From positions 451 to 64,450 of the forward strand of contig CAMJVU010000002.1 in assembly GCA_946409305.1 (NCBI GenBank): 64,000 nucleotides of DNA. The letters are read 5' to 3'. Shown here piece after piece: positions 1,686 to 40,579 of the stretch (its first letter is position 1; every line of letters starts with the position of its first letter). Source of the stretch: an uncultured Cytophagales bacterium. GTDB lineage: Bacteria; Bacteroidota; Bacteroidia; Cytophagales; Amoebophilaceae. The translations under genes were made by a program, and so were the position numbers. The notes under the pieces were generated by a model, which saw only the letters and a program-made list of their open reading frames with translations, was not told the DNA's origin and did not search any database.

Positions 1686-1704
1686 AATCATAACTCCTAC
1701 ATCC
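1605..1704 (-). repeat. Conserved 5' cassette, copy D (upstream leader plus signal-peptide codons)
   Basis: GGATGTAGGAGTTATGATT-ATGAAGGCAAATAAAATATGGCATTTCGTTTGTGTAGTGTTGGTAACATACGGATTAGTTGTTACTTACGGAAATATG aligns by eye with the copies at 3903-4009, 26853-26958 and 35014-35120. Confidence 0.7.
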
Positions 1705-3130
1705 CTCGTATCACATCAAAAGTCAAAGTATCGCCATCACTTATTACATGCTTTACATCATCAAAATCTTTCAAATCATCTAAAGAAGGACTAGAAGCAT
1801 AGTTCAGAATAACTCCATTTAAATAAAAAAGGTTATAATGACATTTACCAACCAGCTCTGGTTTCTTGTTAATAAGAGTCCAATAGAGAACATCCAACAA
1901 TGATTGTTTCCTACTTGTTTTTATACCGTTAAAGTTATATACATCTTCTGACCCCTGAACTCGAACTTTGACGTTTATCTCTACATTCTCTCCTTCATTT
2001 TTACTAGCCAATGTCTGAAGAGCCTCAGGATTCAAACGATAAGTGACATTATTACATTCTGGAACAACGTTGTAAACACTTTTCTCGAGATAATCACCAA
2101 CATTTTGACACGTATAAAACAGAATGTAAGGAGAACCCACAACATTACAACAATCCCACTCTTGTACAATTTTATCATTATATAAGAACCACTTACTACA
2201 TTTCTCGTTATAAACGTACGCAACATAATGACCACCTCCTTTTTCAAAAGAAACAAAAGAAGATAATTTGTAAGTATATCTCTGGAGGTTTACCATTCCA
2301 AATTTGTTCACGTCAAACTTGTTTCCATTTATTATATCACCCGCACTAACATTAACGATCATAACTGGAGCAAATTGATTCAAACCATTATTAAACGGGT
2401 TAGAAAGATCAAGTCCAACTGGGAGCCATCCCAAAAAGCTTTGGATAAGAAGTCTTAAATGATCATTAAACGTATAAAAAAGATTTTCGATAACGTTCAC
2501 GTTATTATTCCCTAATTCTGACGACAATACATTAACAATGTGACTCAAAAGTTTACACGAATCAGCGGGAGCAAAATGACAAAAAGGATTATCCTCGACA
2601 TTATTCTTTCGACCAGTAGTCATAGGAATCTCACCCACAAGATTCTTAAATAAATCAGCACTGAAAATATCCTCACCATCGTTAATCCACAAATTGTAAA
2701 AAACATCAAATAACTGTTTCGTCAAAGTATTATTCGACATTCTCTCAAAAACATCTTGATACCTAATAAAATAATTTCCCAATGCAGGTAAATTACACAA
2801 ACACTGCAATACAGCATTCATATAGCACGTAGCACCAAAATTCTTCAAACCCTTCGTAAAGAATCTTGTATTACCATCATCACTGAATAACCTTTCACGT
2901 GACTTATTTTCTTGTTCCTTTGCCAATCTCTGAATTAAATTTAGATTATTTCCACCTCCACTCTGCTTAACAACATCACTCGAATTGTTTCCACCTTCAC
3001 TCCGATTAACGGTATTATTCCCCAACAGAGGATCGGTACCAACATCCTGTGAACAACAACAAAGACCAAAATAAGAGCAACCGACACATAAGCATGCCCC
3101 CAAAACAGCACACTTCACCAACATCTTCAT
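1697..3130 (-). CDS. USP/UCH-type (peptidase C19) deubiquitinase-like cysteine protease with N-terminal signal/lipobox-like anchor
   Basis: 477 aa. N-terminus MKMLVKCAVLGACLCVGCSYF. Cys box GLKNFGATCYMNAVLQCL. His box GGGHYVAYVYNEKCSKWFLYNDKIV. Confidence 0.85.
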   Translation of the reverse strand: MKMLVKCAVLGACLCVGCSYFGLCCCSQDVGTDPLLGNNTVNRSEGGNNSSDVVKQSGGGNNLNLIQRLAKEQENKSRERLFSDDGNTRFFTKGLKNFGATCYMNAVLQCLCNLPALGNYFIRYQDVFERMSNNTLTKQLFDVFYNLWINDGEDIFSADLFKNLVGEIPMTTGRKNNVEDNPFCHFAPADSCKLLSHIVNVLSSELGNNNVNVIENLFYTFNDHLRLLIQSFLGWLPVGLDLSNPFNNGLNQFAPVMIVNVSAGDIINGNKFDVNKFGMVNLQRYTYKLSSFVSFEKGGGHYVAYVYNEKCSKWFLYNDKIVQEWDCCNVVGSPYILFYTCQNVGDYLEKSVYNVVPECNNVTYRLNPEALQTLASKNEGENVEINVKVRVQGSEDVYNFNGIKTSRKQSLLDVLYWTLINKKPELVGKCHYNLFYLNGVILNYASSPSLDDLKDFDDVKHVISDGDTLTFDVIRGM

Positions 3131-3178
3131 ACTTTATAACAACAAACTAATATAAGAAAGCAAAAATAGCAAAACTTA

Positions 3179-9429: not shown

Positions 9430-10011
9430 TCATTTATCATTTAGTTTCTTATCAAAAAAGACAAAAAATATAGCACCAAATATTATGCACAAGTCTGCTA
9501 CATTAAATATTGGAAGATGATGCACCCCTCCAAAAATTGGGAACCACTCCGGCAATATATTAATTGGTTCTGTACTAAAGCATAACATGTCTATCACCTG
9601 TCCATTAAACAACTTCATAGGAGCATAACTAGGAGCATTCCCTAACAATACACCGTAGAATATTATATCTATGCAATTACCAATTGCTCCACCCAATATC
9701 AATCCCGCTCCATACATTCTCAACCTCCTGTACAAGTATTGAGTAGAGTCGTAAAAAACTTTTTTAACCACATAATAAATCAGCGCAAAACGCAACAACA
9801 AAAGTATTAATTTCCAATGTTCCCATTCAAACACATGTCCCATGCAAATTCCTGGATTAGTTACGTAATAAAAGTGTACAAGACCCATATCCCTTAACTC
9901 CCCCAGCTTCATGTTAAAATGAACCCACAATTTGACGTACTGATCCAATATTACCGAACAGAAACACAGACAAATAACTAAAAATTTATCACGTCTTGAC
10001 ATCTCGCCCAT
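9430..10011 (-). CDS. lspA: Lipoprotein signal peptidase (SPase II)
   Basis: Four TM segments, with GGAIGNCIDIIFYG and FNVADLCIIFGAIFFVF matching the conserved LspA Asp-containing motifs. Confidence 0.85.
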   Translation of the reverse strand: MGEMSRRDKFLVICLCFCSVILDQYVKLWVHFNMKLGELRDMGLVHFYYVTNPGICMGHVFEWEHWKLILLLLRFALIYYVVKKVFYDSTQYLYRRLRMYGAGLILGGAIGNCIDIIFYGVLLGNAPSYAPMKLFNGQVIDMLCFSTEPINILPEWFPIFGGVHHLPIFNVADLCIIFGAIFFVFFDKKLNDK

Positions 10012-25223: not shown

Positions 25224-26660
25224 GTGTACACATATTGTATGTTTGGGTTTCGATGTTACGATATGTGGAATGTTTTTAAGAAAGACGTGCTTTATAGATT
25301 CTTTGCTGTGCGTAATGGTGGTGTTTTACTGTGCGTGTTATTTAGTGGAGTTTCTTGTTATCCTCCTAAACTGAGTGAAACGTCAGGTAGTGAAATGTCG
25401 GGTGATAAGGTGCCGTATAAAGGTGACGAATACCAAAAGGTGTTAAAAGAGGACTATGGATACAAGGATAGTGAGAAACTGGAATTTTTACCTGTGAATA
25501 ATGTAAAGAAACCATATGTGACCGATGTTCTTAAGGATTATGTTAAACCTACGATGGTAGGATTGGAAAATGTGGGAGCGACTTGTTTTATGAATGCAAC
25601 TTTGCAGTGTTTGAGTCAGACTGAAAGGTTGGTTAGATATTTTTTAGATAAAAAAAACGAAGAAAGGATAAATAACAACAATATTACTATGAAAAAGAAC
25701 GAGGAATGTCAGTTGTCTCCTTCATTTCTTGAGGTTATCAAAGGACTGTGGAATAAGGATTGTAAATCTGGATATTATGATCCTAGCAGTTTCAGGGATC
25801 TTGTTGAAAAAATGAATCCGTTGTTTGAGAAGGGGAAAGCGGGTGATCCTAAGGATTTTATTATATTTATACTTGAACAGTTACACAAGGAGTTGAGTAA
25901 GAATGTTGCAGCTACCTGCGATGAATACAATAAAATGATACGACCGAATAAATTTTTCAATCAATATGACAAGAAAAGTGCATTTTCTTACTTTTTTGAA
26001 AATTTTACAAAAAACTGTTCGATAGTAACGGATACCTTTTTTGGAACTACTGAGACGATGCGTCAGTGTGTAAATTGCAAATTGATTTGCTACAATTATG
26101 AGGTTTTTAATTGCCTCATTTTTCCTTTGGATGAAGTAAGGAAGTTTGTGAACAATATGTCTATGAATAATATGAACAACATGTTTATGCCTATGAATGG
26201 AAATAGAGTTAGTCTACGTGATTGTTTCTTGTATAATGGAAAGACAGAATTGTTCTGTGGAGAAGATCAGAATTATTGTAATCGTTGTAAGGGTTTGCAT
26301 AATTCGGGATATACTTCCAGGATATATACAGAACCAAATGTTCTAGTTTTAATACTTAATAGAGGTAAGGGGAATATTTATAATGTTGGTTTGGATTTTG
26401 GTGAGTCTTTGGATATAACGGATTTTGTTGTGAACAAAAATGGAAGAAAAGTTTATGAATTGTATGGGGTTGTTACCCACTTTAAAGGAAACGATCCTAA
26501 GGGACTTGATTCTCATTTTATGGCATCTTGCAAGAATCCTATTGATAATGAGTGGTACAAATATAACGACAATAGTGTTACTAAAGTTAAAAATGTTCAA
26601 AGAGATGTTATAGAATTTGGAACTCCTTATATATTGTTTTACAAGAAAAGAGAAAAATAA
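25224..26660 (+). CDS. USP/UCH-type (C19) deubiquitinase-like protease, second copy, with N-terminal hydrophobic anchor
   Basis: Cys box GLENVGATCFMNATLQCL, a CxxC pair (CVNCKL...CNRCKG) in the finger region, and His box DSHFMASCKNPIDNEWYKYNDNSV. The start is uncertain (GTG 25224, ATG 25239 or ATG 25263). Confidence 0.85.
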   Translation: MYTYCMFGFRCYDMWNVFKKDVLYRFFAVRNGGVLLCVLFSGVSCYPPKLSETSGSEMSGDKVPYKGDEYQKVLKEDYGYKDSEKLEFLPVNNVKKPYVTDVLKDYVKPTMVGLENVGATCFMNATLQCLSQTERLVRYFLDKKNEERINNNNITMKKNEECQLSPSFLEVIKGLWNKDCKSGYYDPSSFRDLVEKMNPLFEKGKAGDPKDFIIFILEQLHKELSKNVAATCDEYNKMIRPNKFFNQYDKKSAFSYFFENFTKNCSIVTDTFFGTTETMRQCVNCKLICYNYEVFNCLIFPLDEVRKFVNNMSMNNMNNMFMPMNGNRVSLRDCFLYNGKTELFCGEDQNYCNRCKGLHNSGYTSRIYTEPNVLVLILNRGKGNIYNVGLDFGESLDITDFVVNKNGRKVYELYGVVTHFKGNDPKGLDSHFMASCKNPIDNEWYKYNDNSVTKVKNVQRDVIEFGTPYILFYKKREK

Positions 26661-26852
26661 CGATATATCTGTAATTTTCCTTTGTAATATCGAAGTGGTA
26701 TCATGTTTTTTATCTTTGTTTGTTATTGTGAGGGTTGGTGTTTTTTTCGTAAGGTATTTTTGATTTCTGTGATCATTTAAATCTGTAACGTTTTAAACGT
26801 AAGTATTTTTTATTTTTCTTTTAACAATATTTGGTTTTATTTATTTATTTAT

Positions 26853-26958
26853 TTATTGTGGTTGTAGAAATTGCAATTATGAAGACAAATAAAATGTTAC
26901 ACTTCGTTTGTGGAGTGTTAGTAGCACAAGGTATTGTGGTTACTTGCGTGAATGGATG
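26853..26958 (+). repeat. Conserved 5' cassette, copy B
   Basis: TTATTGTGGTTGTAGAAATTGCAATT-ATGAAGACAAATAAAATGTTACACTTCGTTTGTGGAGTGTTAGTAGCACAAGGTATTGTGGTTACTTGCGTGAATGG. Confidence 0.75.
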
Positions 26959-39289: not shown

Positions 39290-40579
39290 CTATTCGCTCT
39301 TTTTCGTTACAGTTACAAAAATCCACTCAGGACAACCTCCACTGAATTGTAACGTATCTCCAAAATTCTTCAAGAAATCACGAATTTCTCCAACCTTAAC
39401 AGATACATCTCGATTAGAATCTAAGTTATAGAACTTTCCAGACTTTGGGTCCTTAACAACAGCAGTATAATGACCACTTTTGAAAATCGCCGAATTAAAC
39501 TCAAAGTTATAATTATCGAGAGACTTCTTTACCTTATCAAACCCCTCCTTCAAGTTTCCTATCTTACCATCTATATTGCTACTATTAATTTCATCGATAG
39601 GTCCAAATTCCTTTTTATACTCTTTAAAAACAATATTCCGAATATCTTCTAATACCATCTTATCTTCACTGAAAAACAAAATATTAAACGCACTATTTCC
39701 ATTTGTACTCCCCAACTTGTTAATAAAACGAAAATAAGGATGGGCAACTTGTACATCAAAATACTTCGCACCATCCAATGTATATTTTTCTACACGTACA
39801 GGATTTTCTCCAAGAAACTTTGAAATAGAATTATCTAAAATTTTATCTAAAATAAAACTACGTGGATTATCAATGGCTATCTTATTGAAATATGTACTAA
39901 CTTTGTCTTCTAAGGACTTATCAGTAAGTTCATACCTAAAACGAAAATATCCCTCAAGAAAACAGAAAGACATGACTTTACCCATTTGTTTCGTAGCATA
40001 ATAATCACGAGCAAGAAAATAATAGGCGTCACATGCTGGGTGAGGACTATCTTTAGTTCTCTTCTCAAAAAAACTAGCATAATGTCTCAACCCATGTTTA
40101 TATAACATTTCATAATGCTTCCTGAAATCAATATTGTAATTCCCATTTTTATTTCTCAATTCTTCGTATATATCCTTTATCATCTTCAAATTTAGATTTT
40201 TTTCATCATTATCGTACTTGTAATTCTTTATAAAATTCTGATAAGCAGGGACATTTAATAACGCAAGTATTGGAGCAATTAACCAACAACAATTGTATCT
40301 ATCCATCATGTCAGTACCATAATTCTGTAAGAAACTACAATTCAAGAATTCAAATCCATCATTTTTCAGGTTTTCACCCCAATTTACCTCCCCCAAAGAT
40401 CCTGATTCCAACTGAGAAGGATTACTCCCTGACACCACCCCAACACTCGAACGACACACCACAGACTCTTCAAAGGACCCCACTCGAGACATACCACACT
40501 CGTAACAAGAAATAAACAACGGAGAAATAAATAAAATAAACCTCCACACACTCTTATCAAAACTAATCATAATACCCAC
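39290..40579 (-). CDS. Divergent USP/UCH-like (C19) cysteine protease, third copy
   Basis: Signal with FISC. Degenerate Cys box DRYNCCWLIAPILALLNVPAYQNFI and His box FKSGHYTAVVKDPKSGKFYNLDSNRDV. Confidence 0.6.
   Translation of the reverse strand: MGIMISFDKSVWRFILFISPLFISCYECGMSRVGSFEESVVCRSSVGVVSGSNPSQLESGSLGEVNWGENLKNDGFEFLNCSFLQNYGTDMMDRYNCCWLIAPILALLNVPAYQNFIKNYKYDNDEKNLNLKMIKDIYEELRNKNGNYNIDFRKHYEMLYKHGLRHYASFFEKRTKDSPHPACDAYYFLARDYYATKQMGKVMSFCFLEGYFRFRYELTDKSLEDKVSTYFNKIAIDNPRSFILDKILDNSISKFLGENPVRVEKYTLDGAKYFDVQVAHPYFRFINKLGSTNGNSAFNILFFSEDKMVLEDIRNIVFKEYKKEFGPIDEINSSNIDGKIGNLKEGFDKVKKSLDNYNFEFNSAIFKSGHYTAVVKDPKSGKFYNLDSNRDVSVKVGEIRDFLKNFGDTLQFSGGCPEWIFVTVTKKSE

What the first reader, a model, noticed from the sequence alone, without database searches (positions are those of the whole stretch)
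1697..3130. First of three USP-type deubiquitinase-like proteases in 64 kb, each behind a signal or lipobox-like anchor
The Cys box GLKNFGATCYMNAVLQCL and the His box GGGHYVAYV...WFLYNDKIV are the two signature blocks of eukaryotic ubiquitin-specific proteases (MEROPS C19). Bacteria have no ubiquitin system, so such enzymes are expected to act on host conjugates. The window holds three of them (1697-3130, 25224-26660, 39290-40579). That density implies lineage-specific expansion. All three start with a hydrophobic segment ending in Cys (LCVGC, GVSC, FISC), which would tether them to the bacterial envelope rather than make them classical soluble effectors. From memory, USP-domain proteins have been reported in Candidatus Amoebophilus asiaticus and Cardinium. 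The class is therefore not new, but the topology and the copy number deserve a look.
Basis: partly seen in the sequence, partly recalled or inferred. Interest (0 to 1): 0.6.

Follow-up and report, generated by a model that had tools for sequence, protein, structure and literature searches.

The report
Host-derived ubiquitin proteases in ciliate symbiont
A tiny bacterium of the family Amoebophilaceae, most likely living inside rumen-type ciliates, carries five genuine eukaryote-type ubiquitin-removing proteases, each behind an export or anchor segment. At least some were copied from ciliate genes, and the one examined here is a stripped-down variant of a kind of effector already known in bacteria.

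Summary

**USP1 and USP2.** ORF 1697-3130 (-), 477 aa, here called USP1, is a true USP/C19 protease. It scores Pfam UCH E 5.6e-24, has the triad C102/H301/D319 with N97 and Y302, and its model matches USP46 at Z 24.5. ORF 25224-26660 (+), USP2, is a full-length USP (E 6.5e-42).

**USP3.** The third ORF (39290-40579) matches only at the His box and falls below every threshold, so it is not shown to be a USP.

**Copy number and family.** The whole 703-kb genome holds five verified USPs. It belongs to the Amoebophilaceae, where USPs were predicted in 2010-2012.

**What is new.**
- The copies are not one lineage-specific expansion. A single bacterial clade is rejected (p-AU 3e-60).
- USP2 is 50-57% identical to USPs on telomere-capped, gene-sized ciliate chromosomes, so it was captured from ciliates and fused to a bacterial leader.
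- USP1 is far diverged and its origin is unresolved. It lacks about 100 residues of the fingers subdomain, including both zinc knuckles, and carries an orphan C-terminal domain with only a weak lead towards a ubiquitin-like fold.

**Topology.** All six proteins start with a hydrophobic segment. However, Lgt and signal peptidase I were not found in the assembly, so the topology is unsettled.

This scan has met exported or anchored bacterial USPs several times before, on other DNA.

The parts
3161..3168 (-). TATTTTTG, a match to the Bacteroidota -7 promoter consensus TAnnTTTG, 30 nt upstream of the USP1 start codon
   Evidence: Read by eye. The consensus is from my own knowledge. The sigma-70 scan is not informative for this phylum. 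Low weight.
3053..3130 (-). USP1 residues 1-26: N-terminal leader or anchor. MKMLVK is followed by a 20-residue uncharged stretch with 8 Cys.
   Evidence: Nearly identical in the strain variants P0003, P0004 and P0313. Fails the lipobox rule at position -3.
2861..3052 (-). USP1 residues 27-90: low-complexity G/N/S/Q-rich linker
   Evidence: pLDDT 29-46. Most variable part between strains, with a 13-residue indel.
2096..2860 (-). USP1 residues 91-345: USP catalytic domain (thumb and palm), with the fingers largely missing
   Evidence: Pfam UCH in two stretches, 94-218 and about 283-340. Foldseek USP15/USP4/USP8/USP2, E 1e-11. VIA-align USP46 Z 24.5, rmsd 2.9 over 218 residues, model 91-342. USP12 Z 23.5, CYLD 14.1, TssM 14.0.
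2825..2827 (-). Codon of the catalytic Cys102
   Evidence: Invariant column in alignments A2 and A5.
2228..2230 (-). Codon of the catalytic His301, followed by the aromatic gatekeeper Tyr302
   Evidence: The gatekeeper criterion is from PMC10643670.
2174..2176 (-). Codon of Asp319, the third triad residue (in YND)
1700..2095 (-). USP1 residues 346-477: orphan C-terminal domain, possibly ubiquitin-like
   Evidence: No Pfam hit. No match in 30 family genomes. No PDB sequence hit. No hit among 1.8 billion representatives beyond its own cluster. Highly conserved between strains. ESM-Atlas features point to USP7-type UBL and Ubiquitin_3 clusters, but only at 0.75-0.82, which is a lead only.
25224..26660 (+). 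USP2: full-length USP with both CxxC zinc knuckles, behind a lipobox-type leader (start probably at M6 or M14)
   Evidence: Residues about 80-475 are 50-57% identical to ciliate USPs, while the leader and linker have no ciliate counterpart.
39290..40579 (-). USP3: candidate papain-like protease with NCCW and GHY motifs behind a lipobox-type leader. USP membership is not shown.
9430..10011 (-). lspA (signal peptidase II), the only signal-processing enzyme found
   Evidence: PF01252 E 1.7e-26 at G000:C2:9907-10416, which is window 9457-9966.

Best explanation
USP1 is a catalytically intact cysteine protease of the USP (C19) fold, made by an Amoebophilaceae symbiont that most likely lives inside rumen-type ciliates. 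It is one of five verified USPs in the genome.

Shown: the fold, the aligned Cys102/His301/Asp319 triad with Asn97 and Tyr302, purifying conservation between strains, and residence on a bacterial contig with bacterial base composition.

Inferred: an N-terminal hydrophobic, Cys-rich segment takes the protein through Sec and keeps it on the envelope, either lipid-anchored or as an uncleaved signal anchor. A disordered linker of about 65 residues holds the catalytic domain away from the membrane. At the symbiont-host interface the enzyme removes ubiquitin, or a close relative of it, from host-made conjugates. This would protect the bacterium from ubiquitin-dependent capture or adjust host pathways.

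Loss of the fingers' zinc-knuckle part and gain of a conserved C-terminal domain imply that the ubiquitin body is held differently from canonical USPs.

The repertoire arose from several sources. USP2 and the contig-1 paralog are ciliate-type catalytic domains that were captured and fused to bacterial leaders.
For: Fold and residues.

Conservation: strain variants at 84-95% identity keep the anchor, the triad and the C-terminal domain.

Bacterial residence: the gene shares a contig with pnp, rnr, clpB, ileS, pheT and gyrA. Its GC is 34.7%, against a genome median of 32.5% and about 20% in ciliates.

Family context: USPs occur in 21 of 24 family genomes and in 0 of 16 genomes of other families in the order. 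Nearly all carry lipoprotein-like leaders. SecY and LspA are present.

Host origin:
- USP2's relatives lie on contigs with (CCCCAAT)n telomeres, 60 of 80 loci, median 3 kb and 20.6% GC. That repeat is the telomere of rumen ciliates.
- USP2 falls in a clade with 24 ciliate sequences, SH-aLRT 100.
- A single bacterial clade is rejected, delta lnL 745, p-AU 3e-60.
- Ciliate homologs are 560-1505 aa without hydrophobic N-termini.

Symbiosis: a rumen Amoebophilaceae symbiont has been seen inside ciliates by FISH. Bacterial USPs with proven activity exist, namely TssM and SnUSP1-3.
Against: Fingers and ubiquitin contacts:
- The fingers subdomain, which normally grips ubiquitin, is largely missing.
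- The Cys-to-His distance is 199 residues in USP1 against 310 in USP2.
- By the measure used (start of the Cys box to the GH[YF] motif), USP1 measures 206 residues against 233-389 in the comparators.
- The canonical thumb Glu that contacts ubiquitin Arg72 is Lys193 in this strain, though it is Glu in two variants.

Export:
- USP1's leader fails the lipobox rule.
- Lgt and signal peptidase I were not found.
- How a Sec-exported protein would cross the outer membrane is unknown.
- The genome also has a contractile injection system that could deliver effectors instead.
Confidence: 0.6

Rival explanations
1. USP1 is an active USP-fold hydrolase, but its substrate is not ordinary isopeptide-linked ubiquitin. 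It might act on a ubiquitin-like modifier of the ciliate, or on ester-linked ubiquitin on lipid or sugar at the bacterial surface, as shown for TssM.
For: The fingers are truncated, with both CxxC knuckles gone. The Glu that contacts Arg72 is replaced by Lys193 in this strain. TssM, another finger-lacking bacterial USP, prefers ester-linked ubiquitin on LPS. SnUSP2 also reacts with an ISG15 probe.
Against: The thumb and palm match canonical ubiquitin-specific USPs much better (Z 20-24) than USPL1 (17.2), CYLD (14.1) or TssM (14.0). Two strain variants keep the canonical Glu. No substrate data exist in either direction.
Confidence: 0.2
2. The hydrophobic, Cys-rich N-terminus is not a bacterial export or anchor signal. 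The protein would be delivered into the host by the contractile injection system, and the segment would then anchor it in host membranes, perhaps after host S-acylation of its cysteines.
For: An AFP/T6SSiv-like cluster is present, with an AAA+ ATPase, a sheath (E 5e-11) and a tube (E 9e-15). The same kind of system is reported for the rumen Amoebophilaceae symbiont. Lgt and signal peptidase I were not found. The first 26 residues hold eight cysteines. Simkania USPs also carry hydrophobic regions thought to mediate membrane attachment.
Against: Family USPs in genomes that do have Lgt carry canonical lipoboxes. LspA is retained. The G+T-rich coding strand inflates Cys, Val, Phe and Leu generally: Cys is 2.1% of the proteome and 36% of ORFs look signal-like. 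No known cargo signal for these injection systems was tested.
Confidence: 0.15
3. USP1 is a decaying or catalytically dead remnant of a captured host gene.
For: It has a very long branch (2.3-2.5 substitutions per site), has lost the fingers, and has only three close relatives in public data.
Against: The frame is open and the triad, oxyanion Asn and gatekeeper Tyr are intact. Strain variants at 84-95% identity have their changes concentrated in the linker and the finger-replacement loop, not in the core or the C-terminal domain.
Confidence: 0.05
4. The USP genes are ciliate DNA wrongly binned into the bacterial assembly.
For: USP2 is 50-57% identical to ciliate USPs.
Against: USP1, USP2 and USP3 lie on one 65.7-kb contig among bacterial housekeeping genes. 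GC is 31.6-34.7%, against about 20% in the ciliate contigs. There are no telomeres. Identity to ciliate genes is only about 55%.
Confidence: 0.01

Closest known systems
Predicted USPs of 'Candidatus Amoebophilus asiaticus' (Aasi_0770, Aasi_1805) and 'Candidatus Cardinium hertigii' (CAHE_0028)
   Same: Same bacterial family and same protease family, with a conserved Cys box and His boxes. All are thought to act on the host ubiquitin system, and Aasi_1805 is up-regulated early in infection. Lipoprotein-like leaders are present on the family's USPs.
   Different: None of this genome's five USPs falls in the clade of the family's other USPs, which includes those of the Amoebophilus-like genomes (SH-aLRT 99 for that clade). 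For USP1 alone, membership of that clade cannot be rejected (p-AU 0.23). Those genomes carry one or two copies; this one carries five. USP1 adds a C-terminal domain and lacks more of the fingers.
Burkholderia pseudomallei/mallei TssM, the 'fingerless' USP-type effector (PDB 8pz3)
   Same: A bacterial USP-fold enzyme with the fingers deleted and the gap filled by a short, unrelated segment. Thumb and palm are kept. It is thought to keep the bacterial surface free of ubiquitin.
   Different: Structural similarity is modest: Z 14.0 over 173 residues, against 20-24 for canonical USPs. No Littlefinger loop or N-terminal Ig-like domain was recognised. USP1 keeps the strands flanking the fingers. The loss is independent and occurred in a different phylum.
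Simkania negevensis SnUSP1, SnUSP2 and SnUSP3
   Same: Several USP-type enzymes in one intracellular bacterium of protists. They have hydrophobic regions suggested to attach them to membranes, conserved triad and gatekeeper residues, and activity proven for the catalytic fragments.
   Different: The Simkania enzymes are conventional full USP domains in large proteins. USP1 is finger-truncated, and the Simkania genes are not reported as copies of host genes.
USPs of rumen (trichostome) ciliates on gene-sized macronuclear chromosomes
   Same: USP2 and the contig-1 paralog share 50-57% identity with them over the whole catalytic domain, including the zinc knuckles.
   Different: The ciliate proteins are 560-1505 aa with long hydrophilic N-terminal regions and no leader. 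The bacterial copies keep only the catalytic domain, behind a leader and linker of about 100 residues. USP1 shares only 23-36% local identity with them.

Membership tests
Peptidase C19 / USP (Pfam PF00443) | Profile match above the curated threshold | tested here: met
   USP1 scores 85.6 bits and USP2 144.3 bits against a cut-off of 23.9. USP3 scores 15.1 bits and does not meet the threshold.
Peptidase C19 / USP (Pfam PF00443) | Catalytic Cys, His and Asp/Asn in the aligned columns, with the oxyanion Asn and an aromatic gatekeeper after His | tested here: met
   USP1 has N97, C102, H301, Y302 and D319 in invariant or near-invariant columns of A2 and A5. The criteria follow PMC10643670.
Peptidase C19 / USP (Pfam PF00443) | Thumb-palm-fingers fold | tested here: inconclusive
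   Thumb and palm are present: Z 24.5 with USP46, 218 of 308 residues aligned. The fingers are not: the middle of the Pfam profile (about positions 125-188 of 254) has no match, both CxxC pairs are absent, and residues 220-251 are modelled at pLDDT below 50.
Peptidase C19 / USP (Pfam PF00443) | Cleaves ubiquitin from conjugates | not testable with these tools
   Needs enzyme assays.
Bacterial lipoprotein (Lgt/LspA substrates) | Lipobox after a positively charged n-region and a hydrophobic h-region (PROSITE PS51257-type rule) | tested here: not met
   In the script, USP1's LCVGC fails at position -3 (Cys). USP2 (SGVSC) and USP3 (LFISC) pass.
Bacterial lipoprotein (Lgt/LspA substrates) | The genome encodes Lgt and LspA | tested here: inconclusive
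   LspA is present. Lgt was not found by profile or by tblastn with relatives' Lgt. The assembly is 96% complete in 27 contigs.
TssM-like fingerless USP effectors | Whole fingers deleted, a Littlefinger loop for ubiquitin binding, and an N-terminal Ig-like domain | tested here: inconclusive
   A fingers deficit is shared. The match to 8pz3 is only Z 14.0. The Littlefinger loop and Ig-like domain were not recognised, but the model is weak outside the core.
Clade of Amoebophilaceae USPs that includes the Amoebophilus-like copies | Falls inside that clade on a tree of catalytic domains | tested here: inconclusive
   The ML tree puts USP1 with the ciliate-type clade (SH-aLRT 95-100). The AU test does not reject USP1 plus that clade (p 0.23). 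USP2 and the contig-1 paralog are clearly outside it.
Ubiquitin-like (beta-grasp) domain, for USP1 residues 346-477 | Significant profile or fold match to a UBL family | tested here: inconclusive
   No Pfam or PDB sequence match. ESM-Atlas features are nearest to USP7-type UBL and Ubiquitin_3 clusters at 0.75-0.82, below the level that counts.

The most novel reading that the evidence does not exclude
Symbionts of rumen-type ciliates repeatedly capture the catalytic domains of their host's own ubiquitin-specific proteases and fuse them to export or anchor leaders. They then diversify them into an arsenal of 5 to about 13 copies in 0.7 Mb. USP1 would be the extreme product: a finger-less enzyme with a built-in ubiquitin-like domain. 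Because the lineage has lost signal peptidase I and Lgt, the leaders would stay as permanent anchors, giving a surface shield against host ubiquitin tagging.
Probability: 0.25. Interest if true: 0.75.

Novelty: new variant of a known kind. Interest (0 to 1): 0.55.

Why it matters
Only a few bacterial USP-type deubiquitinases have been studied at the bench (TssM, SnUSP1-3), and the Amoebophilaceae ones are predictions only.

This locus adds three things that can be tested:
- A clear case of a symbiont copying its host's own USP catalytic domain and refitting it with a bacterial leader. The donors can be recognised on telomere-capped ciliate chromosomes.
- A second, independent loss of the ubiquitin-gripping fingers in a bacterial USP, which bears on how ubiquitin can be recognised without them.
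- A compact natural series of five paralogs for asking how an intracellular bacterium without other detected DUB classes handles host ubiquitin. OTU and C48 proteases were not found.

The apparent absence of signal peptidase I and Lgt also raises a general question about protein export in this lineage.

Tried and rejected
The DNA of the strain variants and of the metagenome proteins P0005, P0009, P0062 and P0170 could therefore not be fetched. No dN/dS was possible, and there is no direct proof that those proteins are ciliate; only their gene-sized contigs of 1.5-2.5 kb suggest it.

**USP3**
- The AlphaFold model failed (pLDDT 41) and was not used for fold search.
- The ESM-Atlas gave giant-virus hypothetical, papain-like and UCH clusters at 0.88-0.92, a lead only.

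**USP1 C-terminal domain**
- Nothing was found in Pfam, in PDB sequences, in 30 family genomes or among 1.8 billion representatives.
- Fold searches of the whole model are filled by the USP domain, so they say nothing about this part.

**Hypotheses tested and dropped or left open**
- All bacterial USPs form one clade: rejected.
- USP1 belongs with the clade of the family's other USPs: not rejected, so its origin is left open.
- Ciliate contamination: rejected on contig context and GC.

**Other**
- The shared MKTNKIG-type leader cassette noted earlier is not the leader of the USPs.
- My first, looser leader filter passed 43% of ORFs and was replaced by a stricter one. Both are crude substitutes for SignalP or LipoP.
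- A first genome-contig query with a too-diverse alignment gave no usable pattern.

Full report
**1. What is in the sequence**

ORF 1697-3130 on the minus strand encodes 477 residues from an ATG that is the first possible start. I call it USP1. Both quoted motifs are present.
- Pfam UCH (PF00443) matches at E 5.6e-24, in two stretches that leave the middle of the profile unmatched.
- In alignments with 35 and 24 other USPs, the invariant or near-invariant columns hold N97, C102, Q109, D190, H301, W314 and D319 of USP1.
- Y302 is the aromatic gatekeeper that follows the catalytic His in active bacterial USPs.

An AlphaFold model built on 36 sequences is confident in the core (pLDDT 85-95 for residues 90-210 and 280-345) and poor elsewhere.
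- Foldseek finds USP15, USP4, USP8 and USP2 at E 1e-11.
- VIA-align gives Z 24.5 with USP46, rmsd 2.9 A over 218 residues.
- A Foldseek-independent search ranks canonical USPs at Z 17-23.5, CYLD at 14.1 and TssM at 14.0.

USP1 is therefore a real USP-fold protein with a complete catalytic apparatus.

**2. Anatomy of USP1**

- *Residues 1-26.* MKMLVK is followed by an uncharged stretch with eight cysteines.
- *Residues 27-90.* A low-complexity linker that is disordered in the model. It is the most variable part between strains and includes a 13-residue indel.
- *Residues 91-345.* The catalytic domain. Cys and His are 199 residues apart, against 310 in USP2. From the start of the Cys box to the GH[YF] motif, USP1 measures 206 residues against 233-389 in the comparators. 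Both CxxC zinc knuckles and the strands between them are missing. About 45 poorly modelled, fast-evolving residues take their place.
- *Thumb Glu.* The Glu that contacts ubiquitin Arg72 in canonical USPs is Lys193 here and in one variant, but Glu in two others.
- *Residues 346-477.* A domain with no Pfam, PDB or genome match outside strain-level relatives, yet almost invariant among them. Language-model features place it nearest USP7-type UBL and Ubiquitin_3 clusters, but at scores that count only as a lead.

**3. The other two genes and the genome**

USP2 (25224-26660, +) is a full-length USP with both zinc knuckles.

USP3 (39290-40579, -) has NCCW and GHY motifs that resemble the two boxes and four homologs that conserve them. 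It nevertheless fails Pfam, profile-profile comparison and structure prediction. I leave it as a candidate papain-like protease.

The genome is 703 kb in 27 contigs and 96% complete. It holds five verified USPs: the two above plus one each on contigs 1, 13 and 17. No OTU or C48 protease was found.

**4. Whose genome**

- USPs occur in 21 of 24 genomes of the same family and in none of 16 genomes from other families of the order.
- Record titles identify the family as Amoebophilaceae, order Cytophagales.
- USPs were reported in Amoebophilus (two) and Cardinium (one).
- A 2025 preprint shows an Amoebophilaceae symbiont, Ca. Cillophilus ruminis, inside rumen ciliates. It has a contractile injection system and eukaryote-like proteins. 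Deubiquitinases are not mentioned in its main text.
- This genome also carries such a cluster, with an AAA+ ATPase, a sheath and a tube.

**5. Origin**

USP2 has more than 1000 relatives at about 50-57% identity on contigs of 1.3-4 kb.
- Of the 80 loci fetched, 60 end in (CCCCAAT)n on at least one side and 22 on both. Their median GC is 20.6%.
- That repeat is the telomere of rumen ciliate macronuclear chromosomes.
- On complete chromosomes the USP domain lies at the C-terminus of a 560-1505-aa protein without a hydrophobic N-terminus.
- The bacterial copy keeps only the catalytic domain, behind its own leader and linker.

On a tree of 88 catalytic domains:
- USP2 lies within a clade of 24 ciliate sequences (SH-aLRT 100).
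- The contig-1 paralog groups with other gene-sized-contig proteins (SH-aLRT 98).
- Copies from a second 0.7-Mb family genome (G017, 13 profile matches) sit at several places inside the ciliate-type clade.
- The clade of the family's other USPs, including those of the Amoebophilus-like genomes, contains none of this genome's copies.
- Forcing all bacterial USPs into one clade costs 745 log-likelihood units (p-AU 3e-60).

The USP genes have the genome's own GC and sit among housekeeping genes, so they are resident and not contamination.

USP1 is on a branch of 2.3-2.5 substitutions per site. The ML tree places it with the ciliate-type clade, but the AU test does not exclude the family's other clade (p 0.23). 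Its origin stays open.

**6. Export and topology**

- All six USP-like proteins begin with a hydrophobic segment. Four have a small residue followed by Cys at its end, against a background of 36% and 6.5% in my crude test.
- USPs of other family members mostly carry clear lipoboxes.
- SecY and LspA are present.
- Lgt and signal peptidase I were not found by profiles or by tblastn with relatives' proteins. They are present in 25 and 27 of 30 relatives, and one other 96%-complete genome also lacks both.
- Either both genes lie in assembly gaps or the leaders stay uncleaved. The composition of the coding strand also inflates Cys and hydrophobic residues.
- I therefore hold envelope anchoring as the more likely reading. 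It is not established, and delivery by the injection system remains an alternative.

**7. Comparison and novelty**

The kind is known: predicted USPs of the family, the fingerless TssM, and SnUSP1-3 with hydrophobic regions. This scan has met exported or anchored bacterial USPs in several other protist-associated lineages.

New here are:
- the demonstrable capture of host-type catalytic domains;
- the polyphyly of the repertoire;
- a finger-truncated paralog with an orphan, conserved C-terminal domain.

I rate it a new variant of a known kind.

Noticed in passing
whole genome G000; lspA at window 9430-10011 (-): Signal peptidase I (PF10502, TIGR02227) and Lgt (PF01790) were not found in this 96%-complete assembly, by profile or by tblastn with relatives' proteins. 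lspA and secY are present. Of 30 family genomes, 27 have signal peptidase I and 25 have Lgt. Genome G008 (0.7 Mb, 96% complete) also lacks both. This is either a shared assembly gap or a real loss, with consequences for all exported proteins.
   Followed up: partly
G000 contig 9, about 19.6-26.2 kb (L121:11648-18235): A contractile-injection (AFP/T6SSiv-like) cluster at a contig end: an AAA+ ATPase of 644 aa, a sheath (Phage_sheath_1C, E 5e-11) and a tube (gp19, E 9e-15).
   Followed up: partly
genome-wide, e.g. G000 C1:105003-105731, C7:43034-43750, C19:1-642: Many predicted leaders end in a recurring ...C-L-N-S or ...V-N-S motif. Some USPs of relatives do the same (L012, L014). This may be the lineage's own processing or sorting motif.
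   Followed up: no
G017 (CAMNOX01, 'uncultured Cytophagales bacterium'), contigs 3 and 8 (L101, L102, L103): A second 0.7-Mb family genome has 13 UCH profile matches, several in tandem arrays. Two copies nest deep among ciliate sequences (SH-aLRT 99), which implies further independent captures.
   Followed up: partly
L132 (CP136537.1): A complete 1.45-Mb MAG chromosome titled 'Roseivirga sp.' groups with the Amoebophilaceae in the genome collection and carries a family-type USP. The record name looks wrong.
   Followed up: no
L142, L144 (Puniceicoccales MAGs), L141, L147, L154 (Babeliales), L135, L151, L157, L158 (Parachlamydiaceae, Waddliaceae): USP-type genes turn up in many named MAGs of protist-associated lineages, so bacterial USPs are commoner in genomes than the bench literature suggests.
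   Followed up: no
window 26831-27862 (+): Directly downstream of USP2, on the same strand, lies the Cys-rich protein with the shared MKTNK-type leader that earlier notes described. The USP leaders do not belong to that cassette family.
   Followed up: partly
L149 (CACXDP010000484.1, 'Coriobacteriaceae bacterium RUG11163'): A 4.4-kb contig in a rumen Coriobacteriaceae MAG encodes a USP. This is probably a mis-binned ciliate or symbiont contig.
   Followed up: no
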